From Candidatus Thorarchaeota archaeon (lineage in GTDB: Archaea; Asgardarchaeota; Thorarchaeia; Thorarchaeales; Thorarchaeaceae), in contig DXJO01000018.1 in NCBI GenBank assembly GCA_019057475.1, positions 1 through 64,000 on the forward strand: a stretch of DNA of 64,000 nucleotides, in the 5' to 3' direction. Below are positions 1,626-34,855 of this stretch, in pieces. Both the position numbers and the translations under genes were made by a program. The notes beneath the pieces are model-generated. The model was not told the DNA's origin and made no database searches. It saw only the letters and a program-made list of their open reading frames with translations. The first letter of the stretch is position 1; every line of letters begins with the position of its first letter.

Positions 1626-1820
1626 AATTGGAGAGAGAAAAACACCAGCGCAAACTCTCATAAGGGTGGGGGACACAGTGTCATCATATCGAAGTAGACC
1701 TTCGACCTTTGTTTTGAGTTCTCTGAACTTGTTGTGTTTTTAGTAGGTCGCTCTCCTGAGTGGTCGAAGTCAGTGTTGTGGTAGAGGGCACTTTAGGTAT
1801 CAGGAGAAATTAGATGAACA

Positions 1821-2057
1821 GTGGAAAACAGAAGAAGCGATTTGAGAAAGAGAAAAATTAGACTTATTCTCTTTGCAACCAGTCTTGACATTATCAACAG
1901 GCAGATAGAGCTGTTGGTATCCAAGTGTTATCCGAGCGCAATGGTATCATTGCCGTATCCGTGTGACCGTGGTGAGTTTGAAAATGGATACCGAGTGTAC
2001 CTTGATGTTTTGATTGACGGTGACACAGACCGCGAAGAGGAGGACGCCGACCTTTGA
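1821..2057 (+). CDS. Small hypothetical protein
   Basis: GGAG upstream, acidic tail, co-oriented with the operon. Confidence 0.5.
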   Translation: MENRRSDLRKRKIRLILFATSLDIINRQIELLVSKCYPSAMVSLPYPCDRGEFENGYRVYLDVLIDGDTDREEEDADL

Positions 2058-2118
2058 CGTGTCCCATCTGTCAACGATTTCTGTGGGATAATACTAGATA
2101 TAGGTCTCAGAAGATATC

Positions 2119-5100: not shown

Positions 5101-5412
5101 CAGGTTGGTATGTGGTGGTTGAAACCAAAGGCACTCAATGAGATAACAGAGGCCAAGAAGAAGACCGATTCACAGAAGAGAGAGGAAAAGAAACCAAAGA
5201 CTAAAACCTCTGATATAATACCTGACCTAATTCTTGCATTGCTTGGGAGACGAAGTTGGACTGAAAAGGAACTCAAGGAGCGGTTTCGTGAGGGTGGCAG
5301 TGACTTAGAAGGCTGGGAAGAGGCGTTTGCAAAGGCGATAAGTGACCCTAGAGTGAAACATAAGGATGGGTACTATGGATTCAGACTGAAGAAGAAAGGA
5401 GGTGCCGCCTAA
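2119..5412 (+). CDS. Replication protein: AEP/TOTE-like primase, Cys-rich domain, P-loop NTPase/helicase and winged-helix-like C-terminus (true start probably ~2182)
   Basis: EHLRGDITIGV...FITVDID (DxD), YHM, Cys cluster CYQCKTYC...C...CP, Walker A SGSSTGKT, IIFLDQ Walker B-like. Confidence 0.75.
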   Translation: MPELRQGSFRQRQGGKGKVKRMRILIDMEDDASIGEILNLGDGQAKEMFAKGWARFARPDELGKTNPKKIMELYVNRKEKCLVETASGWRWEDRPITEELIEEHLRGDITIGVPELTKDGLTRFITVDIDGVNHNKRSAETALDRLHDIVQSAKKSDAFKNAIRFIYTGNTYHMTFYVDNPVPPRLLKEVFIYPLLRLAGFGIDGYHWVYAKGQNKGKILGEILPRKNTIDADETGFAVRLPLGCYVREGNQQGNWSRILFDQTLDDVIPLRIGTELLKAFNVADIEREKREHTAKPDWIQPSSKVPLPACVETLIHRKSVHDGTHQNNLDLVHALIVCGYTEDEIYSVFSGMAGYDYAVTKFQRAYTVKRIRKGVLPANCYQCKTYCNDLHGLECVDSDCPHAPVRFEKSISPTGRDTTHPPENIRENIPEISSTAKNRSASPAHDGQYIVLGGEGVSPPTGDIYFDEMNLDEVSTILEKTIVEDEVNKRIIFCAGILNFTEDDQMNIGLSSGSSTGKTYICLEIAKLFPQENVHDLSYASPKAFYHAMGQLVIDDGKTTPLLSLNEYVRKAIDRWEKLNPKPEKGINPWKAERSRERSILTTEWNRIPKVWCIDLHQKMIIFLDQPDDALLQRLRPLLSHDKKQLRYEITDKSSGGQLRTKNVIIIGYPSVWFLTTRFSPDEQERTRLLLLSPEITQPKLVKSIDMLGLRLSDRGRFDQEIEKDPARIQLKKRIEAIKKADIKQILIDEKQMASLIDTFKAKHGDGEKSVLAPRHQRDFPRLIAIIKANALLNLFNRKRNSDDIWVNQSDIDAGQELYDKIAVSNELGLPPIMYEVYTEIIEPYFYRNEGIRKEELTRQYYQRYKERLGGKRLDEMLDFLYDVGLTQKIPDTLDRRRWMLWPQDKELPLPASEGAEAIAAKDTAKKKKLHDPDTPPLPEPEDDPEPEIDFTLKKLKTLFLEAGGLDRGVKHTAQNADLLAKGFDAGYCWENQQVGMWWLKPKALNEITEAKKKTDSQKREEKKPKTKTSDIIPDLILALLGRRSWTEKELKERFREGGSDLEGWEEAFAKAISDPRVKHKDGYYGFRLKKKGGAA

Positions 5413-9149: not shown

Positions 9150-9803
9150 GTGCCAGCTCTGAAGGCATGGCTTCATGTGCATCCCACGGGCAACGGCGCA
9201 GTGTGGACATCACTGATTCGTCCTTTTCATCTCATACGCACGAGACAACTCTATGAGGTCATGCAAATGGCTATTGAGAGAGTAGGTATAACGAGAAAGG
9301 TGAAGAGGATCGTCCACAATCTCCGGCACACAAGAATAACGGAGTTAGTAAGGCTTGGAATACGCGGCCAAGCATTGAGCAAGCTGGTTGGATGGACCAA
9401 GAGAAGCAACATGGAGGCTGTCTACGTTCACTTGTCAACAGAGGATGTCAAGAACGAATTACACGCTAAGGTCTTCGGTATTGCAACCAAAAGAGAAAAA
9501 CCCAGGCCACTCCTAGAGTCTATGACCTGCCCGCGATGTAAGACGCATAACGACCAAACTGCTAGGATCTGCTCAGACTGCAGTATGCCCCTCTCGAATG
9601 ACGCTATCGTAAAAGCACTTGAGAAACTAGAGAAGCAGAAGACGGCTGCAATTGATGTTATATTTGCAGACGTGCTTGGCGGCGCCTTTGATGACATGTT
9701 CTCTGGCTACATGGAAAAACATGGCGAGCGCATTGCAGACCTCTTACAACCTATCGTGCAAAGAATGCTAGCAGAGGAAAGGAAGAAACAGCCCAAGGCA
9801 TAG
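9150..9803 (+). pseudogene. C-terminal half of an archaeal tyrosine recombinase/integrase with Zn-ribbon tail
   Basis: HNLRH (HxxR), LVGW, YVHLS catalytic Tyr, CPRC...CSDC; the N-terminal binding domain and first catalytic Arg are absent. Confidence 0.85.
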
Positions 9804-19429: not shown

Positions 19430-20036
19430 GGATCTTTAGTAGTCAGAATTCCATCCTCATCAGGTGTGACAAAGAAGACCTTGATACTCGCGGTGTTCTT
19501 GTCAGCCGTGAGTTTGAGTTTCTAGTAGCCTGTCTGAGCGATTCTCTCTCTAGGGTGACCTTGCTTGAGATTACAGATATCACATCCCCCGATTTAGGAG
19601 GGTATATCACTAAGTCTACATCGGGAAGACGTAGCCCGAACACTCCATAGTTAGTAGCCAAGTTCCTCTTGACACGACTAGGAATACCTGAGAGCGCTTT
19701 GTTTCGTTCCAGCGTATTGCCATTCATAACCCTCAGTCCCATATCTGCGACTTCTCTGCTGATAATATGCATTATGAGTTTCTCTTGATTCCTGCTCTTG
19801 AAGGCACGCCAACTCTGTTCATGGTCTCCTCCAGTCGTTGACTTTTTTCCAATCTTGTCTATGGATCCCCTTGGCCTCATCCAACAGTTGTGAAATTCTC
19901 CTGCTCGTATTGTCCACGTTAACAACAGTATTATTAGTACCACTGAACCTGACCGCAACAAGTCGAGAACATCGTATTTTCGTAGAGCATCCCTGGTCTT
20001 GTTCACGGATTCATAGGTGGTCAGAAGGCCCGACAT
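19430..20036 (-). pseudogene. BsaWI-family type II restriction endonuclease pseudogene
   Basis: QSWRAFK...EKLI...LPDVDLVIY...SSKVTL, then a 1-nt frameshift; the shifted frame reads RERIAQTGY*KLKL...IKVFFVTPDEDG with a TAG at the usual Trp. Confidence 0.75.
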
Positions 20037-21150: not shown

Positions 21151-24100
21151 TTGACCATGTTTCTCGCCTACCTTTTGGACTTCTCGGGCAGATCACCATA
21201 TTTCTTCAGCCAGCTCCTATTCGCCCCGGATGAACTGGGAAACGCGATACACGGCAACCCCATTACAGTTCCGAAAGGGTTTTCTGGCTTCAGTGATGAG
21301 TTACAGGGACGGGAGAGTGGGATTCTGTCTGTTCGCAACAGGATGATCAAGGCACTCAGAGAAGAGCTACTGGGCCCACGTGGAGGACCACACGAGAGAT
21401 TGAGAGCGCCGCAAGAAAGCCCGAAATCCGAATATATGACGGGAATACTTGAACCACAAGTCTACGACCGTGATCCGTCTCCGGAAACACTTGAAGCACC
21501 TGACACGAAACCGCTAGGTGTGGAAGAGGAAGATTTCGGAGAAGAAGATGAGGGGATTGAGGAGGAGCAGCTTTTCCCTGCCCCTCTCGGCTCAGCCTTG
21601 GACCCAAGGGCATTCGCAAAAAGCCTTGGAATATCATTCACTGTCAGGGGTGAAGATCCCAGTATCGACATCTGTGTCACGTATGGGACCTATGTCAGGG
21701 AGGGAAACTTCTATCTCAGGAAGCCTCATTCCATTATCTTGAGAAGAATAAAGGTTGACAAGGACTCGGAACTGCATCATGACGAGTGGACCACCCTGAG
21801 TTGTTTCTCGCGTAAGGGGACGGAGGGACAGCATGTATCTCTGTATTTGGTCAACAATAGGGCAATCGAGGCTCATATCGCCACTCTGCACGTTGAGGAC
21901 TTGGTCTTCCAGCCCCAGATCAGAGTGCTTCTCAATGAAGGAACAGAGAAGATTCCAGTACAAGGGAAAAGAGCCTTCGACAAGGATGAAGCACAGTTCG
22001 AGCTTCTCTTTCACGAAAAGTTGGCTTATGCCCGTGGGCATATGTGCGGTGCGACCTGGCGTGAGGAAGACCCCGAGCTTGATGCAGGGCAGATGGATCG
22101 CGTCGATGACCCCTTCACATGGATAGATGGGAAGGTCTTGGACGATGATACACGAATGCAATTCACTGCACCAGATTACAGGACAGAATACCTTCCAATT
22201 TACCTCATAGAGCAGGTAAGAATGCACCCTAAAGACGCCGACCAGTATCGACTGAGCGCGGGAAACCTGGCCGAAACATGGAGCTATAACTCCGTCTGCG
22301 AGAAGATCGAGCCCCTTTTGAATGATTATGAGCAGTGGATTGAGCAACAAGTTGCTGCCGTAGACCTACTCCCCGACGAATTGCAGACACACGCCAGGGC
22401 GGGTGTGGATTCATGTAAACGTGCAGCCGCGAGAATGCGAGAGGGACTTGCTTGTCTATCTGACGATGACGTGCGTTTGAGCTTTTGCTTCATGAACAAG
22501 GCCATTGACATTCAATTCAGGTGGAAGGATCAACAGAAGCACACCGGAAAAGAGTCCTCTGGACTCACATGGTACCCGTTTCAGCTTGCATTCATACTCT
22601 TGTGCATACCAACCATAGTGGATCGGTTACACCCGGACAGGAAGCTCTGCGACGTTTTGTGGTTTCCTACCGGTGGCGGCAAAACTGAGGCATACCTGGG
22701 CCTTGCACTCTTCTCTTTGGCGTATCGAAGAAGAAGAGGTGGTGAAGGTAATCAGCCAGGGTTGGGAACGGCTGTCCTATCACGCTATACTCTGCGACTT
22801 CTGACCGTTCAACAGTTCAGACGTGCATCAAGTGTCATCACTGCAGCAGAGCTTCTCCGTGTCAAGAACTGGAAACCATCAGAAGCACCCGAAACACCCG
22901 GAAAGCCACTGTGGGGCACGTTCAGATTTTCCGTAGGTTTGTGGGTCGGAGGCGGAGTGACTCCTAATAGAATTGCGAAGGATAGTGTGGAACCAAGCGC
23001 TATCACGGTACTGAGAGGCTTGAAGAAGGGGTCTGAACCTGCACAGATCCAGTTTTGCCCCGCGTGTGGGTCCATTCTTTCAATGACTGATTCTACGATC
23101 GATAAGGCCGGAACTACTCTCCATTTCTTGGTGCGTGCGCCATCAAGATTGCCTCAAAATCCCGTGTTTCCGGCAAGAAACATCAAAGTCAAGAAGTGCG
23201 TACACAAACACTTCCATGGTGACATACACTCTGTCCGCCTGCATATCACATCTGATAAGGCCAATGTACCAGCAGCGAATCTTGTAGAATGGTGGGAAGG
23301 AGTCGCACGACATGTTCTGAACGACTGTGAGCTGTGTTCAGTTTCTGCGAAAAGGCCTGGATACTTCATACGACAGGATGCGCTGGCCCCGAAAGGATAT
23401 GACTTCGAAATTCACTGTCCCAACGCTGATTGTGAACTCAACAGTACTTACTGGTACGAATTGGAGCCATGTGACTATGGATTGGAACCCAAGCGTCCCC
23501 TTGAACCCTTCAGGGTCAGTGAAGATGCCGCGATGCCTTATGAGATTGAGGGAGTCACTGAGATGGGTTTGCAGTTGGGAATACCCATTCCAGCCTATAC
23601 ATGCGATGACCAAGTGTATCACCGACTTCCTAGCCTAGTTATTGCTACGGTTGACAAGTTTGCCAGACTCCCCTACGAGCCGAGAGCTGCAGCGATATTT
23701 GGCAATATTAATCGCTTCGATGTGATATGGGGCTTTTTCAGAGAGGGGGTTCCACCCAAACGGAGTGTCAGTCCTATCTCGACCACTGTCAATGTGACTG
23801 GTGTAGACCCTCCCGACCTCATAATACAAGATGAATTACACCTCATTCAGGGTCCTCTCGGCACCATGGTGGGGCTATACGAAACCGCTGTGGGAGCTCT
23901 TACTACTAAGTACATAGAACTAGGTCCGATAATCCCCAAGTATATCGCGTCAAGTGCAACAGTAAGGCACTCGGAATCTCAGGTGCAAGCCGTGTTCAAC
24001 CGCACCGTCAGCTTGTTTCCACCTCAAGCTATGAATATCTCCGACAGCTTCTTCTCCCAAGAGATTAGAGCTCACCCTGTTCATAGCACAAGGCCAGGAC

Positions 24101-25164
24101 GGATCTATATGGGGGTCTGTGCACCAGGCAAAGGTGGCCATACACCAGCTGTCAGACTATGGGCCGCCGTTCTACAAAGAGCTTGGATTGAGAAGAGCGA
24201 AGGACTCGCACGACCCGAAGAAGTGGATCAATTCTGGACAGCTGTTGGCTACTTCAACGCTATAAGGGAGCTCGCAGGCGTTCGTAGTCTATACAGACAG
24301 GACATAGTTTCGCAGATTAAGAACTTGAGCAGAGGTACGACATGGGGGCCCAGGGAGATACCTCCCACTCGACTGATAGAGCTGTCCAGTAGAGTCGAGT
24401 CTGCGCAGATTCCAAGAGAACTGACACGTCTTGAGAAATACCCGGATAACCGTGTCGATGCTGTTTTGACCACGTCGATGTTTGGAACAGGGGTGGATGT
24501 TTCAAGACTGGGTCTGATGATAGTCCACGGTCAACCCAAAACGACCGCCAGCTACATCCAAGCAACAGGGAGAGTCGGTCGGAGGCAAGGAGGGCTTGTA
24601 GTCACTTTCCTGAGATCAACGAGACCTAGGGACTTGGACCATTATGAGTTCTTTGTGGGCTACCATCAGCAGTTGCTGAAGTATGTTGAGCCGATTACAG
24701 TTTATCCATACTCCGCCAGGGCCCTGGAGAGGGCTGCCGGCCCTGTGATGGTGGGCATTCTTCGAAACGCCGCGTCAGTAGGCCCAGCTGGTGTATCTCC
24801 ACACTGGGCAGAAGACGGTCAGCGCTATGCGGGTGCTCTGCGGATGGCCAGACACAGAAACGATGCGGAGATTGAGCAGGTCAAAATGGTGCTACTGGAT
24901 CGCAGCCAGAACCAACCAGAGGTGATCCAGCCGTTGAAACCTGAAGTAGAGCGTCTTGTTGCATCAGAAGTGGAGAAATGGTGGAGCTATGCTGCAAATG
25001 ACCAAGATGGACTCCTGTATGTCGAGTATGATGTTCCTTGGAGAGAGCTCCGACACTCGGTAGTTCTGGGCGATCCGGAACACGATGCAGCAGATCTGCC
25101 CACTGTGTACAAGAATGCTCCTCAATCATTGAGGGACGTTGAATCGACGACGAGGTTTGGGTGA
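21151..25164 (+). CDS. drmA: DISARM SF2 helicase DrmA (likely start ATG 21343)
   Basis: WYPFQLAF, WFPTGGGKTEAY, RYTLRLLT, TVDKFA, IIQDELH, SSAT, YIQATGRVGR, RPRDLDHYE. Confidence 0.9.
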   Translation: MTMFLAYLLDFSGRSPYFFSQLLFAPDELGNAIHGNPITVPKGFSGFSDELQGRESGILSVRNRMIKALREELLGPRGGPHERLRAPQESPKSEYMTGILEPQVYDRDPSPETLEAPDTKPLGVEEEDFGEEDEGIEEEQLFPAPLGSALDPRAFAKSLGISFTVRGEDPSIDICVTYGTYVREGNFYLRKPHSIILRRIKVDKDSELHHDEWTTLSCFSRKGTEGQHVSLYLVNNRAIEAHIATLHVEDLVFQPQIRVLLNEGTEKIPVQGKRAFDKDEAQFELLFHEKLAYARGHMCGATWREEDPELDAGQMDRVDDPFTWIDGKVLDDDTRMQFTAPDYRTEYLPIYLIEQVRMHPKDADQYRLSAGNLAETWSYNSVCEKIEPLLNDYEQWIEQQVAAVDLLPDELQTHARAGVDSCKRAAARMREGLACLSDDDVRLSFCFMNKAIDIQFRWKDQQKHTGKESSGLTWYPFQLAFILLCIPTIVDRLHPDRKLCDVLWFPTGGGKTEAYLGLALFSLAYRRRRGGEGNQPGLGTAVLSRYTLRLLTVQQFRRASSVITAAELLRVKNWKPSEAPETPGKPLWGTFRFSVGLWVGGGVTPNRIAKDSVEPSAITVLRGLKKGSEPAQIQFCPACGSILSMTDSTIDKAGTTLHFLVRAPSRLPQNPVFPARNIKVKKCVHKHFHGDIHSVRLHITSDKANVPAANLVEWWEGVARHVLNDCELCSVSAKRPGYFIRQDALAPKGYDFEIHCPNADCELNSTYWYELEPCDYGLEPKRPLEPFRVSEDAAMPYEIEGVTEMGLQLGIPIPAYTCDDQVYHRLPSLVIATVDKFARLPYEPRAAAIFGNINRFDVIWGFFREGVPPKRSVSPISTTVNVTGVDPPDLIIQDELHLIQGPLGTMVGLYETAVGALTTKYIELGPIIPKYIASSATVRHSESQVQAVFNRTVSLFPPQAMNISDSFFSQEIRAHPVHSTRPGRIYMGVCAPGKGGHTPAVRLWAAVLQRAWIEKSEGLARPEEVDQFWTAVGYFNAIRELAGVRSLYRQDIVSQIKNLSRGTTWGPREIPPTRLIELSSRVESAQIPRELTRLEKYPDNRVDAVLTTSMFGTGVDVSRLGLMIVHGQPKTTASYIQATGRVGRRQGGLVVTFLRSTRPRDLDHYEFFVGYHQQLLKYVEPITVYPYSARALERAAGPVMVGILRNAASVGPAGVSPHWAEDGQRYAGALRMARHRNDAEIEQVKMVLLDRSQNQPEVIQPLKPEVERLVASEVEKWWSYAANDQDGLLYVEYDVPWRELRHSVVLGDPEHDAADLPTVYKNAPQSLRDVESTTRFG

Positions 25165-26920
25165 AACAATGAAGGGACAGGAACTAAGACCATCTCAGTA
25201 TCTCTATTCATACGGTGTAGGGGCAATAGTCGAGGCCCCGGATGGTCCGAGGGTGATAAAATCCATCGACCAATGGGGCAACTTCTTCGATTCCCCTAAT
25301 CCGCTTGATGTTCTTAGAGAGTTCGAGATACATGACTGGCGGGCAAAATCTGTGCTCCGAGACGCACGTTTCTTCAGATTGCCCACAAATGCCGACTTGA
25401 AATACTCATCAAGTTACGTGCTCTTCAGTGCCAAGCCGTTTCCAAGGTGGGGCCTTTGCATGAAGCACTGGAAACTTGCGAGAATAAGAAGTGACGGGAA
25501 GACCGGATGTCCTGACTGCGATCCCAGCGAAAACGGAGGACCGACAGCCATCAGATTTGTTCTTGCGTGTCCAGATGGCCACCTAGCTGACATTAATTGG
25601 AACAGGGTCATACATGGAGGAAAACCATGCGGGAACGAAGTCTACGAGTGGAATGAAGAGGGGCACTCTTTGGATGAGATCCAATTGATCTGTACTGAAC
25701 CTAGCTGTCACGCCGAAACAAAGCTTGGTGCGATATACCGGACCTTTCTCCAGTGTCCAGGAATCATGCAGGAGAGTGGTGAGCAAGAGAACTGTGACAG
25801 AGATGCGCGAGTCGTGCTAAGACAAGCCAGCTACCTGAGAGTGCCGGAAGTGAGGGCTTTCCTCACAATACCACCCATCAGCACACAGCTCCATCTGGCC
25901 CTATCAGAGCCGGCTGTGAGAGCAGCCCTTCACATGCTGGATCGGCAAGACAAGCTCAGTACTGACATCATGAGAGAGGAACTGATCTCTCTGGCCAGAG
26001 AGCAGCATATGATCCGTGAAGGTGTCCTTCGTGAGATACTGAGAGCCTCTGACAGAGCGTTGCTCGAAGCGACCCGCAAGGTACTCAAGACAGGCTTCAG
26101 ACCAGAAACACTGATCGAGTCCGAGAAGCAGGAACTCGACGCCCTTAGGATCGCAGTGGAAGATGGTGCGCCCCCAGCACTGACAGCGAGTAGACCGACT
26201 CTGGAGATAGAGAAAGGCTCGTCGGAAACGTTTCCTATATCCGAGGAGATTAGTCTGAGAGTCACACCTGTGAAGCGACTAAGGACGATTTCTGTTCAGA
26301 TCGGCTATCGTCGGCTAGTGGCCAGGGATGAGATAGACCCGCGGCATGTTGAAACGGCGTACGTGAACAACGGAAAATGGTATGTGGCACTGGAGATGAT
26401 GGGTGAGGGCATCTTCATAGACCTGCCCCCGGACAATCCACTTGTCATGCCTGACTCCGAAACAGTTCGTGCGTGGCGTATGAGCTATGCTAGTGCCCCT
26501 CCAGAGGATGCATACAAGTATCATCCTGAATTTGTATGGTTGCATACCCTCTCTCACAGGGTCATAACAGCATTGGGTATAGACTCGGGCTACTCATCCG
26601 CCTCGATAAGAGAGAGAGTCTATTTCACACCAGAAAGGCAGCACATGATTGGTGGCATTCTGCTCTATGTGTCCCAAAGAGGAATGGACGGAACATTGGG
26701 AGGACTAATCGCACTGGTACGAAAGTTTGACAGGATCCTGAAAGGGGCACTCCACCAGATTGACTCATGCTCTAACGACCCCCTATGTCGGGGACGTGTG
26801 CATCATCTCGGAGCAAAGACAGGAGCAGCTTGCTATGGCTGTCTCTTGGTGTCCGAAACATCATGCGAACACAGAAATCTCTTCCTTGATAGAAATCTAC
26901 TGATGGAGACTCTAAGTTGA
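25139..26920 (+). CDS. drmB: DISARM DUF1998 protein DrmB (likely start ATG 25169)
   Basis: RPSQ..YGVGA, RFVLACPDGH, HTLSH, GYSSASIRER, GTLGGL, CSNDPLC, ACYGCLLVSETSCE. Confidence 0.9.
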   Translation: MNRRRGLGETMKGQELRPSQYLYSYGVGAIVEAPDGPRVIKSIDQWGNFFDSPNPLDVLREFEIHDWRAKSVLRDARFFRLPTNADLKYSSSYVLFSAKPFPRWGLCMKHWKLARIRSDGKTGCPDCDPSENGGPTAIRFVLACPDGHLADINWNRVIHGGKPCGNEVYEWNEEGHSLDEIQLICTEPSCHAETKLGAIYRTFLQCPGIMQESGEQENCDRDARVVLRQASYLRVPEVRAFLTIPPISTQLHLALSEPAVRAALHMLDRQDKLSTDIMREELISLAREQHMIREGVLREILRASDRALLEATRKVLKTGFRPETLIESEKQELDALRIAVEDGAPPALTASRPTLEIEKGSSETFPISEEISLRVTPVKRLRTISVQIGYRRLVARDEIDPRHVETAYVNNGKWYVALEMMGEGIFIDLPPDNPLVMPDSETVRAWRMSYASAPPEDAYKYHPEFVWLHTLSHRVITALGIDSGYSSASIRERVYFTPERQHMIGGILLYVSQRGMDGTLGGLIALVRKFDRILKGALHQIDSCSNDPLCRGRVHHLGAKTGAACYGCLLVSETSCEHRNLFLDRNLLMETLS

Positions 26921-27423
26921 CAGAACGAAAGGAACAGGTTTCAGTATTGGCAACGGGAATGGCTCTAGTGGGTGGTGGATTCAGGTCAGCGGATACCGTG
27001 GTCAGAGAACTGATTGCCGGGGCTTCGCGCGAGATTCAGATTGCCGCCTACACGATAACAGTCGGGGCAGAGGATATACTGGACCTGATTGAAGAGAAAA
27101 TGGATGAAGGAGTGAAGGTTAACATAGTAGTGAACCGTTTCGAAGAGCTGGAATCTAGAGTCAGAAACAGGTTGAATAAACTAGCACGTACGCATCCGGA
27201 ACTCTGGCTATCGGACTTCAGACCACGCGCGGGAGAAGGGGACATGCATGCCAAAGCCATGGTGTTCGACAGAGAGGTGGCTGTTGTCGGTTCCATGAAT
27301 CTATCTCATCGAGGTCTAGTGGCTGGTCATGAGATTTCAGTTGGAATACAGGGTTCTGGTGCGAGCTTGGTGGCGAAGGCTATAGACAAATTGATGCAAG
27401 ACTCAAGATCGAGAAGGCTTTAG
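26917..27423 (+). CDS. drmC: Phospholipase D-family nuclease, DrmC-like
   Basis: HAKAMVFD...GSMN (HxKxxxxD-x6-GSxN); 4-nt overlap with drmB. Confidence 0.85.
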   Translation: MTERKEQVSVLATGMALVGGGFRSADTVVRELIAGASREIQIAAYTITVGAEDILDLIEEKMDEGVKVNIVVNRFEELESRVRNRLNKLARTHPELWLSDFRPRAGEGDMHAKAMVFDREVAVVGSMNLSHRGLVAGHEISVGIQGSGASLVAKAIDKLMQDSRSRRL

Positions 27424-27424
27424 A

Positions 27425-28834
27425 ATGGGAGTCAAGAAAGAAGCTGAAATCCATATACTGAACAACCTGAGGAAGACTCATCGTGGCCTCTATGAGAGCT
27501 ACATCACTAGTTTTCGCGCAATGACATCAGAACTTAAATTAAAGAAACGAGCACTTCAATTGCAGGATATAAGAAACACCAAGCATGGAAACGTAATAGC
27601 TTTCAGGTTGGTCATGCCCAAGATGTATCATCTCTCGTTGGAGCATGCTGTGTCACGTTTCAGGCACGCGGATAAAATCCCTGCTGGCAAGCTTAGGATG
27701 AATGTCCCCGTTGGCTATATTCCAGGATACTGCCCGACTATGGACCTATTCACTGTCTTCAGGGTCCATGGCGAATTGAGCAAATTGGCACGCAGAAATG
27801 CCATGTTACCATCTGATGTCTGGCAGATAAAACAGAACGGGAAAAGAGCCTCAACATTCTCTAGTATTAACTCAATTCTGAGAGGGACAGCTCAAATAGG
27901 AAACGCAAGAGCGAAGGTTAGTGAGCTATTCAAGCAGTATCTGAACTACTTCTTCTGGTCTTTCCCTTCTAAGGGATATACTGGTTCACCCCACATGGTG
28001 CCGGGTTCTAATTTGACAAGAGCAGTATACAAGGTTACAAAGACTCTGTTCGGCTTCGAAGGAGCGACAGAAGTGACGTTGCGCACCCTGGGCCAAGATT
28101 TGGTCTTCCCGGCAGTCAAGCTCATTGGATTGATGGTACGGGGCAACACATACCAAGTTGGCAGGTGCACAGCCATTGCTACAACAGGCATACTCGAGAA
28201 ACTGAAAAAAATGAAAAGACACTATGTGATGAACGGTGCTGTGACAGAGTTTATCCGACCCAATGTGAAGCCATTCTATACATTGACACTAGTGACAGAG
28301 TTCGTTGATACCTGGCCCGAACTCCTGGCTAGTCTTTTCGGTATTGTAGCTCGCCAGAAGTTCTATTCCAGCCGGTCGCCCACGCATATTGGCGCCACAG
28401 AAAAGATATGGTCAACGGTAGATAAGATTGACCGCTATTTCGGGCAATACGTGGGATTGCCAAGAACAGTATCATTCGGGATCAAGACTGATGAAGAGCG
28501 CAAGGACTATGCTCTCCGTACACTAAGACCCATTTTTGCAGTGGAGAATGGTCAGACATATTGCCTTCCGCCAATGCTTGCCAGTAGTCTAGAATCCAGC
28601 CGGAACCTTGATGCTGTTTGCACCAACCAAGAGTCTCTTCTAAACTACCTTCGAATGACATCGAAACTACATGAAGAGATAGCGAAGCATGGTGAAAGAA
28701 ACTTGGATTTCGTCCGACTACCAGAGTTCAGTTACTTCGTAGAGCAAGGCGCCAATACTTGGGATATGGCCAAAGAAACTGTCAGTGCACTTCCGTATTT
28801 GAACTTGACTAAGACTGTGAGGAGGTTCTATTGA
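27425..28834 (+). CDS. Unknown 469-aa basic protein inside the DISARM operon
   Basis: Long ORF, 1 nt after drmC and overlapping the next gene; no motif recognised. Confidence 0.8.
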   Translation: MGVKKEAEIHILNNLRKTHRGLYESYITSFRAMTSELKLKKRALQLQDIRNTKHGNVIAFRLVMPKMYHLSLEHAVSRFRHADKIPAGKLRMNVPVGYIPGYCPTMDLFTVFRVHGELSKLARRNAMLPSDVWQIKQNGKRASTFSSINSILRGTAQIGNARAKVSELFKQYLNYFFWSFPSKGYTGSPHMVPGSNLTRAVYKVTKTLFGFEGATEVTLRTLGQDLVFPAVKLIGLMVRGNTYQVGRCTAIATTGILEKLKKMKRHYVMNGAVTEFIRPNVKPFYTLTLVTEFVDTWPELLASLFGIVARQKFYSSRSPTHIGATEKIWSTVDKIDRYFGQYVGLPRTVSFGIKTDEERKDYALRTLRPIFAVENGQTYCLPPMLASSLESSRNLDAVCTNQESLLNYLRMTSKLHEEIAKHGERNLDFVRLPEFSYFVEQGANTWDMAKETVSALPYLNLTKTVRRFY

Positions 28835-29565
28835 CATACCATATTCGGGGAACAGATTATGGCTCGCATAGTTCTTCTGGTGTTTCCAGTGTGTTCCCCA
28901 GGGAGGTGTCCATTCGCGAAGTATGTGCAGCACTTGCGAGGAAATGGAAGACCCCTGACTTGGGTAACAAAGACGACCCGCTGGACGAGATCGTCTACCT
29001 TGTTCTTGCAGGACGTACAAGAGAGCAGGCCTACCGAGATGGGTACACAAAGCTCAAGGCTAGATTCCCCAACTGGGGAATGGTTCTTGATGCAGGGCCG
29101 AAGGAATTGGAGGAGCTGATATCAGGGGGTGGCCTCGAGGAAATCAAAGCAGCCAAGATATGGGATCTGATGGCCTACTTGGCTGAAACGCCACAGGGGA
29201 TTGACCTGAGCCACCTGAAAGGAAAGAAACGCGATTTTGTGCTTGAATACCTGCTGAAGCTTCCGGGCGTTGGACTGAAGAATGCTCTATGTGTGATGAT
29301 CTACTCTCTGAACATGGATGCATTCCCTGCCGATGCCAATGTTATCCGCATCTGCAAGAGCATGGGGTGGATACCCACACAGTGGGGTCACAAGAAGTCG
29401 CAAAGAGTGTTGGCTGAACTGGTGCCTGATGAGATAGGCAGAATTCTCCATGTGAACATGGTCGTTCACGGTAGACTGATATGCAGGCCTGCGAATCCGC
29501 AATGTAGTCAATGTGTAATCAAAGGATACTGTGCATACGGAAGGAGGAGTATGGTAGGTGACTGA
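28831..29565 (+). CDS. HhH-GPD DNA glycosylase (endonuclease III-like) with [4Fe-4S] motif
   Basis: LLKLPGVGLKNA (HhH), FPADANV (catalytic Asp), HGRLICRPANPQCSQCVIKGYC (C-x6-C-x2-C-x5-C). Confidence 0.9.
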   Translation: MTYHIRGTDYGSHSSSGVSSVFPREVSIREVCAALARKWKTPDLGNKDDPLDEIVYLVLAGRTREQAYRDGYTKLKARFPNWGMVLDAGPKELEELISGGGLEEIKAAKIWDLMAYLAETPQGIDLSHLKGKKRDFVLEYLLKLPGVGLKNALCVMIYSLNMDAFPADANVIRICKSMGWIPTQWGHKKSQRVLAELVPDEIGRILHVNMVVHGRLICRPANPQCSQCVIKGYCAYGRRSMVGD

Positions 29566-30727
29566 TCCCGGAACCATGATTGACCTGTTCTGCGGTGCTG
29601 GAGGCATGTCGGCAGGCTTCTCAGAAGCCGGATTCAGTGTGGTGGCTGCAGTTGACAGTGATAAGGACTGTATTCTCACATTCAGGCAAAACCATCCTGA
29701 TGTTCAACATGCAATGGTACGTAGCCTTGAACGTGGTCAGTTCACTCCTCAGAAACTTCAGCAATGCATCGGGAGAGATGATATTGATCTAGTGATTGGT
29801 GGTCCACCGTGTCAGGGATTCTCGAAGGCCTCAATGAACCCTGAAGCAAAGGCGAACTTCGGGCCGGGAAGTAAGAACAGGTATGATAGACGGAACTCGT
29901 ACTACAGACGGTTCTTCCACTTTGTACGACACTTCAAGCCATCCGCTTTCGTCATGGAGAACGTCCCAACCCTTCTGAAGAAGACCAATGGGTTGTATGT
30001 GAAGAAGGCCAGGTCGCTTGGGCGCTCAATGGGATTCGAGGTTTCAGTATTGAAACTCAACGCTGCTGATTTCGGGATTCCTCAAACGAGAAGGCGTCTC
30101 TTCATAGTCGGCACCAGAAATCCAGGGTGTTTCGAGCTTCCTGAGAAATCGCACTTCCCTGATCGGGATGACCAATCAAGATACAGGTCGGTCGGAGATG
30201 CCATCATGGACCTTCCTGTGCTCAAGGCAGGTTCCGGTTCTCACACCATGGAATACGACGAAAAAGTGATTCGGAAATTCGAGAGAGATAAGCGCTTCTT
30301 GCACAAGTATGCGAGGTGGGCACGGGACGGGGAAGACACACTCCGACATCATATAAGCCGGTATCATTCAGAAAGGGACCTAGGCATTTTCAAGATGTTG
30401 AAACCGGGTGTTTCATCGGCCCAGCTGCCAGCGGAGCAACAGGAGCTGATTCCATATAGCATGACTTCATTCAAGGACAAGTATCGCAGACAGCCTATGG
30501 TTGCTCCATCGACAACAGTTACTGCACATATTGCCAAGGATGGTCTGTACTACATTCATCCTGTGCAAAATCGTAGCTTTACTCCGAGGGAAGCAGCGCG
30601 ACTGCAGTCATTTCGGGATTCGTACACATTCTCTGGCTGCAGAACCTCTGTGTATAGGCAGATAGGAAACGCTGTACCTCCGTTGCTAGCCAAGGCGATT
30701 GCTGAGAAGGTGATTGCCTGCAACTAA
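29558..30727 (+). CDS. DNA (cytosine-5) methyltransferase, DrmMII-like
   Basis: DLFCGAGG, GGPPCQGFS, ENV, PQTRRR, TPREAARLQSF, QIGNAVPP. Confidence 0.95.
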   Translation: MTDPGTMIDLFCGAGGMSAGFSEAGFSVVAAVDSDKDCILTFRQNHPDVQHAMVRSLERGQFTPQKLQQCIGRDDIDLVIGGPPCQGFSKASMNPEAKANFGPGSKNRYDRRNSYYRRFFHFVRHFKPSAFVMENVPTLLKKTNGLYVKKARSLGRSMGFEVSVLKLNAADFGIPQTRRRLFIVGTRNPGCFELPEKSHFPDRDDQSRYRSVGDAIMDLPVLKAGSGSHTMEYDEKVIRKFERDKRFLHKYARWARDGEDTLRHHISRYHSERDLGIFKMLKPGVSSAQLPAEQQELIPYSMTSFKDKYRRQPMVAPSTTVTAHIAKDGLYYIHPVQNRSFTPREAARLQSFRDSYTFSGCRTSVYRQIGNAVPPLLAKAIAEKVIACN

Positions 30728-31288: not shown

Positions 31289-32719
31289 CTACCCTGTTAC
31301 GGAGAAATCATCGAATAGAAGGCTGGGTGCCTGAGCTCCATAGGGGGTCAATGTGACATCACTGCCGATGTGCAGGAGGTTCTTGAATCCCTCATAGAAC
31401 TGCCCTGCAATCGAGACCGGTTCCAATGATCCCTTAATCTCACCGTTTTCAATCAGAAGAACAGAGTTGGCAACTACTGAGAACTCACCAGTGCTCACAT
31501 TCGTGTGGAATATTCCCAAAGGCATATCCATAATCATGACTCCTTTGCCATCCACTTCAGCAACTAGGTCATCGATGCCCTTCTTGCCTTGTTCAATCTC
31601 AAGCCATTTCGTGGAAACCGAGGGAGAAGACTCATAGGGAGTGGGACCGCCGAATGGCCCTCCACCTCTTGAACAGTTCCCGGTTGACTCTACATTGAAA
31701 GCCCGGCCATAGTATGAATCAAAGAGGAAAGACTTCAGAACGCCCTTATCAACAATAACATTCCTCTGTTGCGGATGACCCTCACCATCGACAGCATGAG
31801 TCCCTAGACCTTTCGGGTTCTGTCCATCATCCACGATGGTAAGGCCACTTGATGCAATCGTGTCACCTAGCATGTCGCATAGAGGGGATATGCCCTCCAC
31901 AACGGGCTGGCCTGTCACAGACTTCCCGATGCTTGATAGAACGTATGGTGCAGATGCTTTTGGTGTCCAGATTGTAGGCATCTTGGCTGTTGTGTCTATT
32001 TTCTTAGCACCCAGCAGACGAACTGCGTCCTTTGCAGCCCGCTCGCCCAATCCTGCGGTTTCGAACAGCCGCTCTCTGGAAACATCGAAGTCGAACGAAC
32101 TCTTGCGTTCTTCGCCATCCATGGCAATCACATAGACATAGCAGCTGTTCATTCCAGTTCTAGACGCAGCCTGTATCCCAAGTGTATTGCCGAGGGCGAT
32201 TCCACCCCAAGAGGCAGAACACCCGGCATTCACTATCTTGGCTTTAGGGTCTGTTTCTCGGGCCTCCTCCACCATCTGTAGGGAATGCTCAATCAGGTCA
32301 TCTGTTCCCAGCTCGAGTATCTCCTTAGTGAATACGCCTTCGCGTCCGGGCTTGCGCGGCTCACAGAAGCCCTTGAATCTATCATCCTCCACTGATATCG
32401 TATTGATAATGGAGAGAGCCTCTCTCGTGCTTAGTTTCACGCGATCTAGGTCGATTCCACTTGCACATGCAAAGCCCACTCGCTGACCTTTTGCTGCGCG
32501 TACTGCGTTACCTGCAACAACACCATCCTTAGCAGTGACAACGCCTTGATCGATTTCCGCCTCAGAAGAGCTCTCGTAGTGGATGAATATCTCAAATTCA
32601 GCCGAGCTATCTAGTGCCTTCGCGTATTTCAGACTAGTGTCAGTAACAGATAGAAGCTCATCATTTAGATTGTCATATTCCATCATAATCATCCTCCTAG
32701 CCATTAGCCTGACCTCCAA
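31289..32719 (-). CDS. pmbA: PmbA/TldE family protein
   Basis: DGEGHPQQRNVIVDKGVLKSFL, TGNC, TGEFSV; lacks HExxxH. Confidence 0.85.
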   Translation of the reverse strand: MEVRLMARRMIMMEYDNLNDELLSVTDTSLKYAKALDSSAEFEIFIHYESSSEAEIDQGVVTAKDGVVAGNAVRAAKGQRVGFACASGIDLDRVKLSTREALSIINTISVEDDRFKGFCEPRKPGREGVFTKEILELGTDDLIEHSLQMVEEARETDPKAKIVNAGCSASWGGIALGNTLGIQAASRTGMNSCYVYVIAMDGEERKSSFDFDVSRERLFETAGLGERAAKDAVRLLGAKKIDTTAKMPTIWTPKASAPYVLSSIGKSVTGQPVVEGISPLCDMLGDTIASSGLTIVDDGQNPKGLGTHAVDGEGHPQQRNVIVDKGVLKSFLFDSYYGRAFNVESTGNCSRGGGPFGGPTPYESSPSVSTKWLEIEQGKKGIDDLVAEVDGKGVMIMDMPLGIFHTNVSTGEFSVVANSVLLIENGEIKGSLEPVSIAGQFYEGFKNLLHIGSDVTLTPYGAQAPSLLFDDFSVTG

Positions 32720-34130
32720 AGGTTACATCGCCCACCAGCAGTTTGGGTCCTCCGAAACCTACCGGCAATGGGGATTGCCCGCCTTTTCCGCACCCTCCGA
32801 AGTATCCCGAATACAGTCTAAGTTCCTTCGTTGCGCCTTCTATCTTACCGAGGAAGTCGAGAATATTCCCTGAAAGGGCTACCTCCCTTAGCGGATGCTT
32901 GATCTCGCCTCTCTCCACCCAGTATCCGCGAATCGCCTTGAACAAGAAACTACCATCAGCATCGACCTGACCGCCAGATGTCTGTATGGCATAGACCCCA
33001 GTTCCGAGCTGCTCTAGCGCCTCCTCTTCCGTGAGAGTGCCTAGCGTGAAATACGTGTTCGTCATTCGGGGGATGGGTGGGAACACGAAGCTAACCGCAC
33101 GGCTATTGCCAGTTGGCTCTTGCCCAAGCTTTTTGGCTGTACCTCGATTGTGAAGGTAGTGCACAAGCACACCCTTGTCGAGTACAACTGTTTGGCCACC
33201 AGCGATGCCTTGGTCGTCAAAAGGAAACCACAGGCCACCGGTCTTCTTGATGTCGGGATATCCTCCATCGATTATTGTGGCATGTTCTGTACCGAGGCGT
33301 TCTCCTATCTTTCCTGCCAAAGGAGAGCCTCCAGTGACAATGAAGTCCGCTTCGCTAAGATGTCCAAAGGACTCGTGGGCAAGCACGCCAACAAGACGGT
33401 TCTCGATTAAGCTACGGAATTGCCCAGCTGGACACGCCTTAGCTTTGAGCTGCTCTTTAGCTTTCGCGCCTGCACTCTCACCAACCTCTTCAGGAGTGGT
33501 GCCCTTAGACTCAAAGAAATCAAGTCCGATGGTCCCTCCGTGTCCTTCCACGGCGAAGACGAGAGCGCCAGAATCCGTCTTCGACGTCACATAGCAACGG
33601 AGTCCAGTGACCAGAAACTCCCAATCAATCTCTGACGCATCGCTATTCGTGAACATTTTCTTGCCGTAAAGCTCACCGTAGAGCCCTCGTATGTTTCTAA
33701 TGTTCGCTCCGTGTTCGCGTGCAGATTCCACTACGCGGTTCACCATGTCCGTCTTGTGACCTAGGTCCTTGTCCCGAGGGTGGACCTTGACTGGCAAGGT
33801 GTCTGACTTCTTGCTCTTCACTGGAGACCCACGCTCAAAGGGGAGTTTCAGAGTAGCTGCCTTTGAAGACGCTTTTGCCATTTTGAACGCCTTCTCAGCC
33901 GCCATCTTAACATCCTTTGAAGCGGAACTTGCAGTGAAGGAGAAGCCAGAAACTCCGTCAACATAGCACGTGATGCCAAAGCCCATTCTTGACTTCACCT
34001 GTATGTCCTTCCAAATATCATCTGTGCGCTGCAGAGTTCTAAGTGTGAGATCATCATAACGAGCCTCTACAAAGTCAGCTCCGAGGTCCTCTCCAACTCG
34101 CACGCACTTTTGAAGCAAATCAAACATCAA
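32697..34130 (-). CDS. tldD: TldD family metalloprotease
   Basis: AHESFGHLSEAD, DDQG, PRMTNTY, GCGKGGQ. Confidence 0.9.
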   Translation of the reverse strand: MMFDLLQKCVRVGEDLGADFVEARYDDLTLRTLQRTDDIWKDIQVKSRMGFGITCYVDGVSGFSFTASSASKDVKMAAEKAFKMAKASSKAATLKLPFERGSPVKSKKSDTLPVKVHPRDKDLGHKTDMVNRVVESAREHGANIRNIRGLYGELYGKKMFTNSDASEIDWEFLVTGLRCYVTSKTDSGALVFAVEGHGGTIGLDFFESKGTTPEEVGESAGAKAKEQLKAKACPAGQFRSLIENRLVGVLAHESFGHLSEADFIVTGGSPLAGKIGERLGTEHATIIDGGYPDIKKTGGLWFPFDDQGIAGGQTVVLDKGVLVHYLHNRGTAKKLGQEPTGNSRAVSFVFPPIPRMTNTYFTLGTLTEEEALEQLGTGVYAIQTSGGQVDADGSFLFKAIRGYWVERGEIKHPLREVALSGNILDFLGKIEGATKELRLYSGYFGGCGKGGQSPLPVGFGGPKLLVGDVTFGGQANG

Positions 34131-34258
34131 TCATCAGCCCTTCACACCCGCCATGAAACCGTACATCATAGAGTGTGCTATCAATTCGATGAGTTCATAC
34201 CAACCGGGGAAAGCAGCTTAAGAGCATTGGGATTAGCGTAGGCTGCAGCAATCAGAAA

Positions 34259-34855
34259 CTAACGTGGGGGATGTCTGCCATACAGCTCTTTCGCTATTCG
34301 CGTGAATACATCTTGCACGTTTTCACCTGTCTTTGCACTGGCTTCGAAAAAGGGCCAACCCAACGAGTCAGCATGAACTCTTCCCTCAGCAGAACTTACC
34401 TGCCGGGATTCCTCGCGGTCTGATTTGTTACCAACGAGGGCTCCTGGGAGCTGCTTACCTGTTTCACCATCCAAGGCAACAAGGAGTCCCCGATACCACT
34501 CAGGTAGGGCTTCGAAGGAATCTCTATCGCTGACGTCGTAAACCAATGTCACAAAGTGTGCGCCCTTGTAGTATTGTGATCTCAAGGCAGTGAAGTCTTC
34601 TTGTCCACCAAGATCTATCACTGTGAGAATTACTGGGGTGAAAGCATCCACATTGACAGCGATTGCACTCAAGTCGACTCCAACCGTTGCGCAGTAACTC
34701 TCATCGAATTCATCCAGAATCAGCCGACGAATCAACGAGGATTTACCTGTGTTTGCGTTGCCAATCAGGAGGACCTTGTAGACTGGAACTGACAAAAGAA
34801 TCGCCTTTTCCAACTTATCACGGGCACGTTCGTCTTTCCCAGGGTCTAATCTCAA
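34259..34855 (-). CDS. Rab-like small GTPase (eukaryotic signature protein)
   Basis: GNANTGKS, ATVG, DLGGQ, YYKGA, GNKSD, EASAK; no C-terminal Cys. Confidence 0.9.
   Translation of the reverse strand: MRLDPGKDERARDKLEKAILLSVPVYKVLLIGNANTGKSSLIRRLILDEFDESYCATVGVDLSAIAVNVDAFTPVILTVIDLGGQEDFTALRSQYYKGAHFVTLVYDVSDRDSFEALPEWYRGLLVALDGETGKQLPGALVGNKSDREESRQVSSAEGRVHADSLGWPFFEASAKTGENVQDVFTRIAKELYGRHPPR

What the first reader, a model, noticed from the sequence alone, without database searches (positions are those of the whole stretch)
21151..30727. Non-canonical DISARM operon: drmABC, unknown gene, DNA glycosylase and 5mC MTase
Seen: six genes with overlaps or gaps of only a few nt, forming one operon. 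Known: class I DISARM adds drmD and drmMI to the drmABC core; class II adds drmE and the 5mC MTase drmMII. Here no SNF2 drmD or recognisable drmE is present. Two other genes, a 469-aa unknown and an HhH-GPD/[4Fe-4S] glycosylase, sit between drmC and the MTase. Inference: a new DISARM subtype in a probable Asgard archaeon, coupling base excision to the DrmAB sensor. DrmA also appears to carry a ~110-aa insert between its FCPACG and HCPNADC Cys pairs.
Basis: partly seen in the sequence, partly recalled or inferred. Interest (0 to 1): 0.85.

Follow-up and report, generated by a model that had tools for sequence, protein, structure and literature searches.

The report
DISARM variant with OB-fold partner
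This six-gene operon is a real, recurrent variant of the class 2 DISARM anti-virus system: the usual DrmE protein is replaced by an uncatalogued, predicted DNA-binding protein, and the DNA glycosylase looks like the methylase's repair companion, not a new weapon.

Summary
Six tightly packed same-strand ORFs encode DrmA, DrmB, a short DrmC, a 469-aa protein (X), an HhH-GPD/[4Fe-4S] glycosylase and a C5-cytosine methylase. All catalytic motifs are intact.

- **X is a family, not an orphan.** An exhaustive HMMER search found 47 cluster representatives. X lies beside drmABC in all 11 loci with enough flank.
- **X-bearing loci form one clade.** They are monophyletic in a DrmB tree (98/96), inside a class-2-like clade that also holds a canonical DrmE locus.
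- **X is not a detectable DrmE.** It has no Pfam, PADLOC or NCBIfam hit, and hhalign against DrmE gives 1% probability. The X model (pLDDT 89) shows two OB folds, a winged helix and a helical tail (RPA/SSB/HIN-like). The low-confidence DrmE model looks like an SF2 helicase.
- **The glycosylase tracks the methylase, not DrmABC.** Related loci carry a Mig-like glycosylase, Vsr or nothing in that place. Homologues of the window's Lys-type enzyme sit beside 5mC methylases in non-DISARM contexts. It is most likely a Vsr analogue.
- **The ~110-aa DrmA insert is real but clade-wide.**

Verdict: a new variant of class 2 DISARM.

The parts
21151..25164 (+). drmA: YprA-like SF2 helicase with a clade-specific ~110-aa insert between two CxxC pairs in RecA1. 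The true start is possibly the ATG at 21343 or 21157.
   Evidence: PADLOC PDLC02571 E=0, colinear. Helicase_C hit. Motifs GGGKT, DELH and QxxGRxGR are present. Insert compared across 16 DrmA proteins. N-terminal alignment.
25139..26920 (+). drmB: DUF1998/MZB zinc-binding partner of DrmA.
   Evidence: NF038324, 411 bits against a cut-off of 240. PADLOC DrmB 1e-162. PF09369. 41-44% identical to the DrmB of L003, L005 and L008.
26917..27423 (+). drmC: short single-HKD PLD nuclease. It lacks the N-terminal part found in canonical DrmC.
   Evidence: PF13091 4e-18. PADLOC PDLC02614 1e-40 over its full length. It matches only positions 73-234 of NF038319, 69 bits against a cut-off of 133. The HxK..D..GSxN motif is conserved.
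27425..28834 (+). Protein X (469 aa, pI 9.9): an uncatalogued family predicted to have N-terminal helices, two OB folds, a winged helix and a C-terminal helical domain. It occupies the DrmE slot.
   Evidence: No family hit. 47 cluster representatives by exhaustive HMMER. AF2 model pLDDT 89, pTM 0.91. SSB/RPA/HIN matches. Beside drmABC in 11/11 loci. pI.
28831..29565 (+). HhH-GPD/[4Fe-4S] DNA glycosylase of the Nth/DrEndoIII-1,3/ROS1-like type, with the HhH lysine and the catalytic aspartate. Gene callers may start it about 20 codons downstream.
   Evidence: PF00730. PDB matches: 4uob 7e-26, ROS1 2e-17, Mig 1kea 1.6e-7. GVGLK, PAD and the Cys cluster are present. Homologues lie beside 5mC methylases. 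The database copy is 224 aa.
29558..30727 (+). C5-cytosine DNA methyltransferase (the DrmMII role).
   Evidence: PF00145 1e-62. PADLOC MTase_II 1e-100 and DrmMII 1e-84. Motifs FxGxG, PCQ, ENV, QxRxR and GN are present.

Best explanation
This is a class-2-type DISARM defence operon of a distinct sub-lineage, carried on a horizontally acquired island.

Inferred from the families and from published work on DISARM:
- The C5 methylase marks host DNA.
- DrmA (helicase) and DrmB (zinc module) load onto and translocate along invading DNA.
- The short single-HKD DrmC is the nuclease, presumably as a dimer.

Inferred from synteny, co-phylogeny and fold: helicase-like DrmE is replaced by protein X. X is a basic protein with two predicted OB folds and a winged helix. 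It most likely binds the DNA that DrmAB engages or unwinds, single- or double-stranded, and so helps recognise the target or activate the complex.

Inferred from gene-slot equivalence: the HhH-GPD glycosylase is not part of the attack. It is the methylase's companion and removes T from the T:G mismatches that form when 5-methylcytosine deaminates, as Vsr and Mig.MthI do.

Nothing here is shown biochemically.
For: - **Core.** All three core genes and the methylase match their families at full length with intact motifs.
- **X family and synteny.** 47 cluster representatives. Every locus with enough flank has drmA-drmB-drmC next to X: window, L003, L005/6, L007/8, L010, L011, L014, L099, L100, L101 and L103.
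- **Phylogeny.** In a DrmB maximum-likelihood tree the nine X-bearing loci form one clade (98/96). It lies within a 100/100 clade that also holds L015, which carries a true DrmE (PF24957 4e-22) in the same post-drmC slot.
- **X fold.** Confident model. Foldseek top hits are D. radiodurans SSB (2e-5), RPA70 and HIN domains. Atlas hits are archaeal Ssb/RPA clusters. VIA gives Z 6.9 to RPA70 DBD-B (103 aligned, rmsd 3.0) and Z 5.8 to cullin winged-helix domains. The pI is 9.9.
- **DrmE differs.** hhalign of X against DrmE gives 1% probability. The DrmE model matches RIG-I/SNF2 helicases at 1e-8.
- **Glycosylase.** It always adjoins the methylase, in any order or orientation. The slot holds a Mig-like enzyme in L003, L005, L011, L012, L018 and L103 (PDLC03398 1e-30 to 1e-48), Vsr in L010 and L099, and nothing in L014, L015 and L016. 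Homologues of the window's enzyme, 37-42% identical, were looked up in four clusters. They lie next to or one gene from 5mC methylases outside DISARM in three of them.
- **Precedent.** Mig.MthI counteracts 5mC deamination (PMC2714593).
- **Island.** X occurs in 2/400 genomes of the phylum, 0/6 of the genus and 0/85 of the family. Primase, ParB and integrase-remnant genes lie upstream.
Against: - The window's glycosylase is not Mig-like. It has the HhH lysine of bifunctional Nth/ROS1-type enzymes. Its nearest solved relatives are DrEndoIII-3/-1 and ROS1, and none of these results shows activity on T:G mismatches.
- The OB assignment for X rests on middling structural scores (Z below 8, TM below 0.5), which the tool itself warns may reflect only a common arrangement.
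- The DrmE model is of low confidence (pLDDT 67), so the 'different fold' argument is not airtight.
- There is no evidence of physical contact between X and DrmA, DrmB or DrmC. The complex predictor was unavailable.
- No anti-virus activity has been tested for this sub-lineage.
Confidence: 0.68

Rival explanations
1. One reading: the glycosylase is an offensive component. It would be a bifunctional glycosylase/AP-lyase that DrmAB directs onto invader DNA, excising unmethylated or hypermodified bases and nicking the strand. It would complement or replace the dispensable DrmC nuclease.
For: - The HhH lysine and catalytic aspartate of bifunctional enzymes are kept across its subfamily.
- It overlaps both neighbouring genes.
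- Its homologues occur in restriction-like Z1/DUF4420/AIPR/HATPase clusters.
- Base-excision restriction enzymes exist (PMC10273834).
- It gives a weak hit to a PADLOC model titled 'Type II nicking endonuclease'.
Against: - In sister loci the same slot holds Vsr or a Mig-like T:G glycosylase, or is empty.
- The gene tracks the methylase rather than drmABC in order and orientation.
- In the Z1/AIPR clusters it overlaps the methylase gene by 4 nt, where I recall Vsr usually lies in such clusters (not checked here).
Confidence: 0.17
2. X is a highly diverged or truncated DrmE. The operon would then be an ordinary class 2 DISARM whose DrmE has drifted beyond sequence recognition.
For: - X sits in the same post-drmC slot as DrmE in L015, within the same DrmA/DrmB clade.
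- The DrmE model has a small beta-barrel followed by a helical C-terminus.
- The DrmE model is of low confidence.
Against: - None of 31 X-family members hits any PADLOC DrmE model, and the window's own protein X does not hit PF24957 DrmE_C.
- Profile-profile probability is 1%.
- X is 469 aa against about 780 aa for DrmE.
- X is beta-rich and OB-like, while DrmE is alpha/beta and matches SF2 helicases over about 700 columns.
Confidence: 0.07
3. X, the glycosylase and the methylase form a separate restriction-modification-like module that merely sits beside drmABC. X would be its DNA-recognition or restriction subunit rather than a DISARM subunit.
For: - In L010, X lies with Vsr and the methylase upstream of drmA rather than after drmC.
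- The methylase scores slightly better against generic Type II models than against DrmMII.
- In L094 an unrelated 508-aa protein lies between a P0002-like glycosylase and a methylase.
Against: - X was never seen without drmABC: 11/11 loci, including L007/L008, where an integrase rather than a methylase follows X.
- X co-diverges with DrmB.
- X has no recognisable nuclease motif.
- The L094 protein is unrelated to X.
Confidence: 0.08

Closest known systems
Class 2 DISARM (Bacillus paralicheniformis type: drmE-drmA-drmB-drmC-drmMII; Ofir et al. 2018, as summarised in bioRxiv 10.1101/2021.12.28.474362 and PMC9142583)
   Same: The helicase and DUF1998 protein are split into DrmA and DrmB. There is a PLD nuclease DrmC and a C5-cytosine methylase in one operon. 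The DrmA/DrmB lineage is the same as that of a locus with a true DrmE (L015).
   Different: DrmE was essential in the tested system. Here it is absent, and an unrelated tandem-OB/winged-helix protein takes its place. DrmC is short: it lacks the N-terminal part, which Bell et al. describe as a 4-helix bundle in most DrmC. A mismatch-repair-type gene accompanies the methylase. The hosts are mostly archaea.
Mig.MthI with M.MthTI, and Vsr with Dcm (repair enzymes partnered with 5mC methylases)
   Same: A small DNA-repair enzyme is encoded directly beside a C5 methylase. Sister loci carry true Mig-like (HhH tyrosine) enzymes or Vsr in the same slot.
   Different: The window's enzyme has the HhH lysine and is closest to D. 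radiodurans EndoIII-3/-1 and plant ROS1. It hits Mig only weakly (1.6e-7). Its substrate is unknown.
RPA70 DNA-binding domains, bacterial and archaeal SSB, and HIN-200 domains (tandem OB-fold DNA binders)
   Same: X is predicted to have two consecutive OB-like barrels and is strongly basic. RPA32 also combines an OB fold with a winged helix.
   Different: There is no sequence similarity to any OB family. Structural scores are middling (Z<=6.9). X has extra N- and C-terminal helical domains. It lies in a defence operon, not a replication context.
Asgard (Freyarchaeia) DISARM reported in PMC11529989
   Same: A DISARM system with a C5 methylase in an Asgard archaeon, inferred to be laterally acquired.
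   Different: That system is described as having both DrmE and a DrmD helicase. This one has neither and carries X instead.

Membership tests
DISARM (core) | YprA-like SF2 helicase DrmA with intact ATPase motifs | tested here: met
   PADLOC DrmA PDLC02571 E=0. GGGKT, DELH and QxxGRxGR are present.
DISARM (core) | DUF1998/MZB protein DrmB encoded as a separate gene next to DrmA | tested here: met
   NF038324, 411 bits against a cut-off of 240. PF09369. The genes overlap.
DISARM (core) | PLD-family nuclease DrmC | tested here: met
   PF13091 4e-18 and PADLOC DrmC 1e-40. The HKD motif is conserved. It falls below the NF038319 equivalog cut-off (69 against 133 bits) because the N-terminal third is missing.
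DISARM class 2 | C5-cytosine methylase DrmMII in the operon | tested here: met
   PF00145 1e-62. PADLOC DrmMII 1e-84, though generic MTase_II scores 1e-100. All methylase motifs are present.
DISARM class 2 | DrmE (Pfam DrmE_C PF24957; PADLOC DrmE models). describes it as present 'on occasion'. | tested here: not met
   None of the six proteins hits DrmE. None of 31 X-family members hits PADLOC DrmE. PDLC02636 finds nothing in the genome at E<=10. hhalign of X against DrmE gives 1% probability.
DISARM class 2 | Protection against viruses that depends on drmA, drmB and the accessory gene; the methylase marks self DNA | not testable with these tools
   This needs heterologous expression, virus challenge and methylome sequencing.
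DISARM class 1 | SNF2 helicase DrmD and N6-adenine methylase DrmMI next to drmABC | tested here: not met
   The operon has no DrmD or DrmMI hit. PDLC02632 finds nothing in the genome. The only DrmMI-like hit is on another contig.
Mig-type T:G mismatch glycosylase (PADLOC PDLC03398; Mig.MthI) | HhH-GPD fold with a [4Fe-4S] cluster | tested here: met
   PF00730. The Cys cluster is present.
Mig-type T:G mismatch glycosylase (PADLOC PDLC03398; Mig.MthI) | Tyrosine in the HhH motif (Mig.MthI Y126) and a full-length match to the family model | tested here: not met
   The window has GVGLK (lysine). PDLC03398 matches only the C-terminal part at 2.5e-8, against 1e-30 to 1e-48 for the enzymes of sister loci.
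Mig-type T:G mismatch glycosylase (PADLOC PDLC03398; Mig.MthI) | Excision of T (or U) opposite G | not testable with these tools
   This needs a glycosylase assay.
Endonuclease III (Nth) | Equivalog-level match to TIGR01083, plus the catalytic Lys and Asp | tested here: inconclusive
   The Lys and Asp are present. TIGR01083 scores 60.5 bits against a cut-off of 211.7. The best model, NF053634 (DR2438-type), scores 95 against 400.
OB-fold ssDNA-binding proteins (RPA/SSB) | OB-fold barrels recognisable by structure | tested here: inconclusive
   Foldseek 2e-5 with probability 0.99 to SSB and RPA70. VIA Z 6.9, below the tool's confidence line of 8. Atlas TM 0.34-0.46.
OB-fold ssDNA-binding proteins (RPA/SSB) | Sequence membership in a known OB family (for example PF00436, PF01336, PF21473) | tested here: not met
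   No Pfam hit at E<=0.01.

The most novel reading that the evidence does not exclude
The X-bearing loci would be a mechanistically separate DISARM class. A HIN/RPA-like tandem-OB protein, rather than a helicase-like DrmE, would be the subunit that recognises invader DNA. In the window, the lysine-type glycosylase/AP-lyase would have been recruited as a base-excision effector acting on foreign DNA.
Probability: 0.12. Interest if true: 0.8.

Novelty: new variant of a known kind. Interest (0 to 1): 0.5.

Why it matters
- **Class 2 DISARM mechanism.** DrmE was essential in the tested class 2 system, yet its function is unknown. A natural sub-lineage keeps the same DrmA/DrmB/DrmC/methylase chassis but swaps DrmE for a compact, confidently modelled and apparently DNA-binding protein. 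That gives a tractable handle on what the accessory subunit does.
- **Detection tools.** X has no Pfam, PADLOC or NCBIfam model. From my memory of their rules (not tested here), PADLOC and DefenseFinder would report this subtype as incomplete or 'other' DISARM.
- **Annotation.** The Vsr / Mig-like / Nth-like alternation beside the methylase is a clean case of non-orthologous displacement. It argues against reading every defence-island glycosylase as an effector.
- **Substrate question.** A lysine-type HhH-GPD subfamily repeatedly linked to 5mC methylases would be worth a substrate test.

Tried and rejected
- The word-index homologue search for X found only X itself. The Atlas feature search found nothing usable. 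The exhaustive HMMER search was needed.
- PDB sequence search for X: nothing.
- The search for related loci failed with the X alignments A1 and A2 because no stretch was conserved enough. With a single DrmB it confirmed no relative. It worked with a four-sequence DrmB alignment.
- DrmE hypotheses:
  - PADLOC DrmE against 31 X-family members: no hit.
  - DrmE model against the own genome and against 400 genomes of the phylum: no hit.
  - hhalign of X against one DrmE and against a DrmE alignment: 0.3% and 1%.
- The proteins that follow drmC in L016 (1042 aa) and L013 (756 aa) are neither DrmE nor X. The 508-aa protein in L094 is not X.
- The sigma-70 promoter and terminator scan was no better than shuffled sequence, and it is not suited to archaea.
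- Profilin and Vps28 Pfam models found nothing in the genome, and nothing in the controls either, so this is uninformative for the Asgard question.
- Kinship of the Bathyarchaeia genomes to the window's genome is not disclosed by the tools.
- Ofir et al. 2018 (PMC5739279) is not held. Its content is cited only through later papers.
Full report
**Observation**

The window holds six same-strand ORFs at exactly the coordinates given. The junctions are overlaps of 26 (or 8), 4, 4 and 8 nt and one 1-nt gap. Family scans give the following.
- **DrmA:** PADLOC PDLC02571, E=0, colinear.
- **DrmB:** NF038324, 411 bits against a cut-off of 240.
- **DrmC:** a short protein (PF13091; PADLOC DrmC 1e-40). 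It matches only positions 73-234 of the canonical DrmC model.
- **469-aa protein (X):** no hit in Pfam, PADLOC or NCBIfam.
- **Glycosylase:** HhH-GPD.
- **Methylase:** C5-cytosine type.

Helicase, HKD and methylase motifs are all intact. No DrmD or DrmE is detectable in the operon. The two models tried against the whole genome also found nothing. The conserved part of DrmA starts near residue 60, so its start codon may be the ATG at 21343.

**Protein X is a family tied to DISARM**

The word-index search found nothing. An exhaustive HMMER pass found 47 cluster representatives, mostly 460-530 aa and 19-34% identical.

In every locus with enough flank, X lies beside drmA-drmB-drmC. These loci are L003, L005/L006, L007/L008, L010, L011, L014, L099, L100, L101 and L103. 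In L101 the three core genes are broken into fragments.

A maximum-likelihood DrmB tree puts the nine X-bearing loci in one clade (98/96), with the window branching deepest. That clade lies inside a 100/100 class-2-like clade. The larger clade also contains a proteobacterial locus (L015) with a genuine DrmE (PF24957 4e-22; PADLOC DrmE 4.5e-13) directly after drmC. Other members of the larger clade carry different genes in that slot: REase-ARP, PrimPol, a TPR protein and unknown proteins of 756 and 1042 aa. The post-drmC slot is therefore variable, and X is one stable solution.

Named hosts of X-bearing loci are two Bathyarchaeia MAGs and an unclassified archaeon. In the window's own phylum, X occurs in 2 of 400 genomes, in none of 6 congeners and in none of 85 genomes of the same family. 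The operon is flanked upstream by ParB-like, AEP-TOTE primase and integrase-remnant genes. This pattern fits a horizontally acquired island.

**Is X a diverged DrmE?**
- No X-family member hits any PADLOC DrmE model, and the window's own X does not hit Pfam DrmE_C.
- Profile-profile comparison with a five-sequence DrmE alignment gives 1% probability.
- AlphaFold2 with the family alignment gives a confident X model (pLDDT 89, pTM 0.91). It has N-terminal helices, two beta-barrels (about 60-177 and 178-295), a winged helix (about 295-382) and a helical tail.
- Foldseek against the PDB returns D. radiodurans SSB (2e-5), RPA70 and HIN-200 domains.
- The ESM Atlas returns archaeal Ssb-like and RPA clusters. 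BFVD returns LEF-3 and phage SSBs.
- VIA-align gives Z 6.9 to RPA70 DBD-B and AIM2/p204 HIN, and Z 5.8 to cullin winged-helix and Z 5.7 to ORC winged-helix domains.

These structural scores are consistent in kind but middling in strength. I treat 'tandem OB plus winged helix' as probable, not proven. X is strongly basic (pI 9.9; first barrel 10.7).

The DrmE model is of low confidence (pLDDT 67). It is alpha/beta and matches RIG-I/MDA5/SNF2 helicases over about 700 columns at 1e-8. On present evidence X is a non-homologous replacement for DrmE.

**The glycosylase**

The window's enzyme keeps the HhH lysine, the catalytic aspartate and the four-cysteine cluster. It is closest to D. radiodurans EndoIII-3/-1 (7e-26) and ROS1 (2e-17), and only distantly similar to Mig.MthI (1.6e-7).

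Comparative context is the informative part.
- A repair-type gene lies next to the methylase wherever the methylase is, in any order or orientation relative to drmABC.
- That gene is a Mig-like glycosylase (PDLC03398 1e-30 to 1e-48, HhH tyrosine) in L003, L005, L011, L012, L018 and L103.
- It is Vsr in L010 and L099.
- Nothing is there in L014, L015 and L016.
- Homologues of the window's own subfamily (37-42% identical) were looked up in four clusters. In two the gene overlaps a 5mC methylase gene by 4 nt next to AIPR/DUF4420/Z1/HATPase_c_3 genes. In L094 it flanks an unknown gene and a methylase. In L104 it sits beside Z1/DUF4420 genes with no methylase on record.

Mig.MthI is described as counteracting 5mC deamination (PMC2714593). 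The simplest reading is non-orthologous displacement of a Vsr-like function. The lysine-type chemistry and the unknown substrate leave room for the offensive rival, to which I give about 0.17.

**The DrmA insert**

The two Cys pairs are 107 aa apart in the window and 107-116 aa apart in all 13 near relatives, including the DrmE-bearing L015. They are 15-20 aa apart in three distant DrmA proteins. Bell et al. describe two zinc-binding motifs embedded in RecA1 of DISARM helicases (bioRxiv 10.1101/2025.09.15.676423). The insert is real but is a clade trait.

**Comparison with what is known**

One published wording describes class 2 DISARM as the core triplet plus drmMII 'and, on occasion' drmE. 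By that wording the locus is class 2. In the tested class 2 system drmE was essential and drmC dispensable.

Bell et al. note 'many uncharacterized DISARM-like' classes without describing this one. An Asgard DISARM with DrmE and DrmD has been reported (PMC11529989). I found no paper describing X or this architecture. The scan's own notebook holds an unchecked note on another genome (e1-1302451) whose description matches this architecture.

The organism is consistent with an Asgard archaeon: a Ras-family GTPase in the window and an ESCRT-II EAP30 hit above cut-off elsewhere in the genome.

**Verdict**

This is a new variant of class 2 DISARM, defined by the tandem-OB protein X. The glycosylase is most likely an ordinary methylase companion. 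Interest is moderate (0.5).

Noticed in passing
window 245-5412 and 9150-9803: Upstream of the operon lie a ParB_N protein (245-1330), a 1097-aa protein with an AEP-TOTE primase domain (2119-5412) and a C-terminal fragment of a tyrosine integrase (9150-9803). The DISARM operon appears to sit in or beside an integrated mobile element or defence island.
   Followed up: partly
window 19443-20036 (-): A 197-aa ORF 1.1 kb upstream of drmA gives a sub-threshold partial hit to the BsaWI restriction endonuclease family (24.2 bits against a cut-off of 26.2). It may be a small Type II nuclease remnant near the methylase.
   Followed up: no
window 26917-27423 and the DrmC of L003, L005, L008, L099 and L100: DrmC throughout this clade is only about 168-173 aa and lacks the N-terminal third of the canonical DrmC model. 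Bell et al. report that most DISARM DrmC proteins have a Cas11-like four-helix bundle there.
   Followed up: partly
L003 9250-9558: A small stand-alone Ssb-like OB-fold gene (102 aa, PF21473 2e-9) lies between the methylase and the Mig-like glycosylase of an X-type DISARM locus. This is a second OB protein in the same system.
   Followed up: no
L101 3770-13414: This X-type DISARM locus has drmA, drmB and drmC broken into many frame fragments and the methylase into two, while X is intact. It is either long-read indel error or a decaying locus.
   Followed up: no
L090 4559-12786; L092 2277-10507; L104 1257-6681: Lysine-type HhH-GPD glycosylases related to the window's enzyme recur beside AIPR/DUF4420/Z1/HATPase_c_3 gene clusters. 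In L090 and L092 they pair with a 5mC methylase; in L104 none is on record. L090 also carries a Bub-like ubiquitin-type module nearby (Multi_ubiq, Prok-E2, ThiF/JAB).
   Followed up: partly
L018 12345-13355; L019 11724-13562; L017 7815-8981; L016 12215-15340; L013 7965-10232: In X-less relatives of the same DrmA/DrmB clade, the gene after drmC (or after drmB in L017 and L019, where no drmC was detected) is variable. It is REase-ARP/PD-(D/E)XK in L018, PrimPol in L019, a TPR protein in L017, and unknown proteins of 1042 and 756 aa in L016 and L013.
   Followed up: partly
window 31289-34855 (-): Directly downstream lie a PmbA/TldD peptidase pair and a Ras-family small GTPase (PF00071 1e-42). Elsewhere in the genome there is an ESCRT-II EAP30 match above cut-off (G000:C26:23466-23879). 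Both are consistent with an Asgard host.
   Followed up: partly
G000:C32:11924-12613 (L009): A 1354-aa ORF on another contig weakly matches the DrmMI N6-adenine methylase model (1.6e-9). It is not linked to this operon.
   Followed up: no
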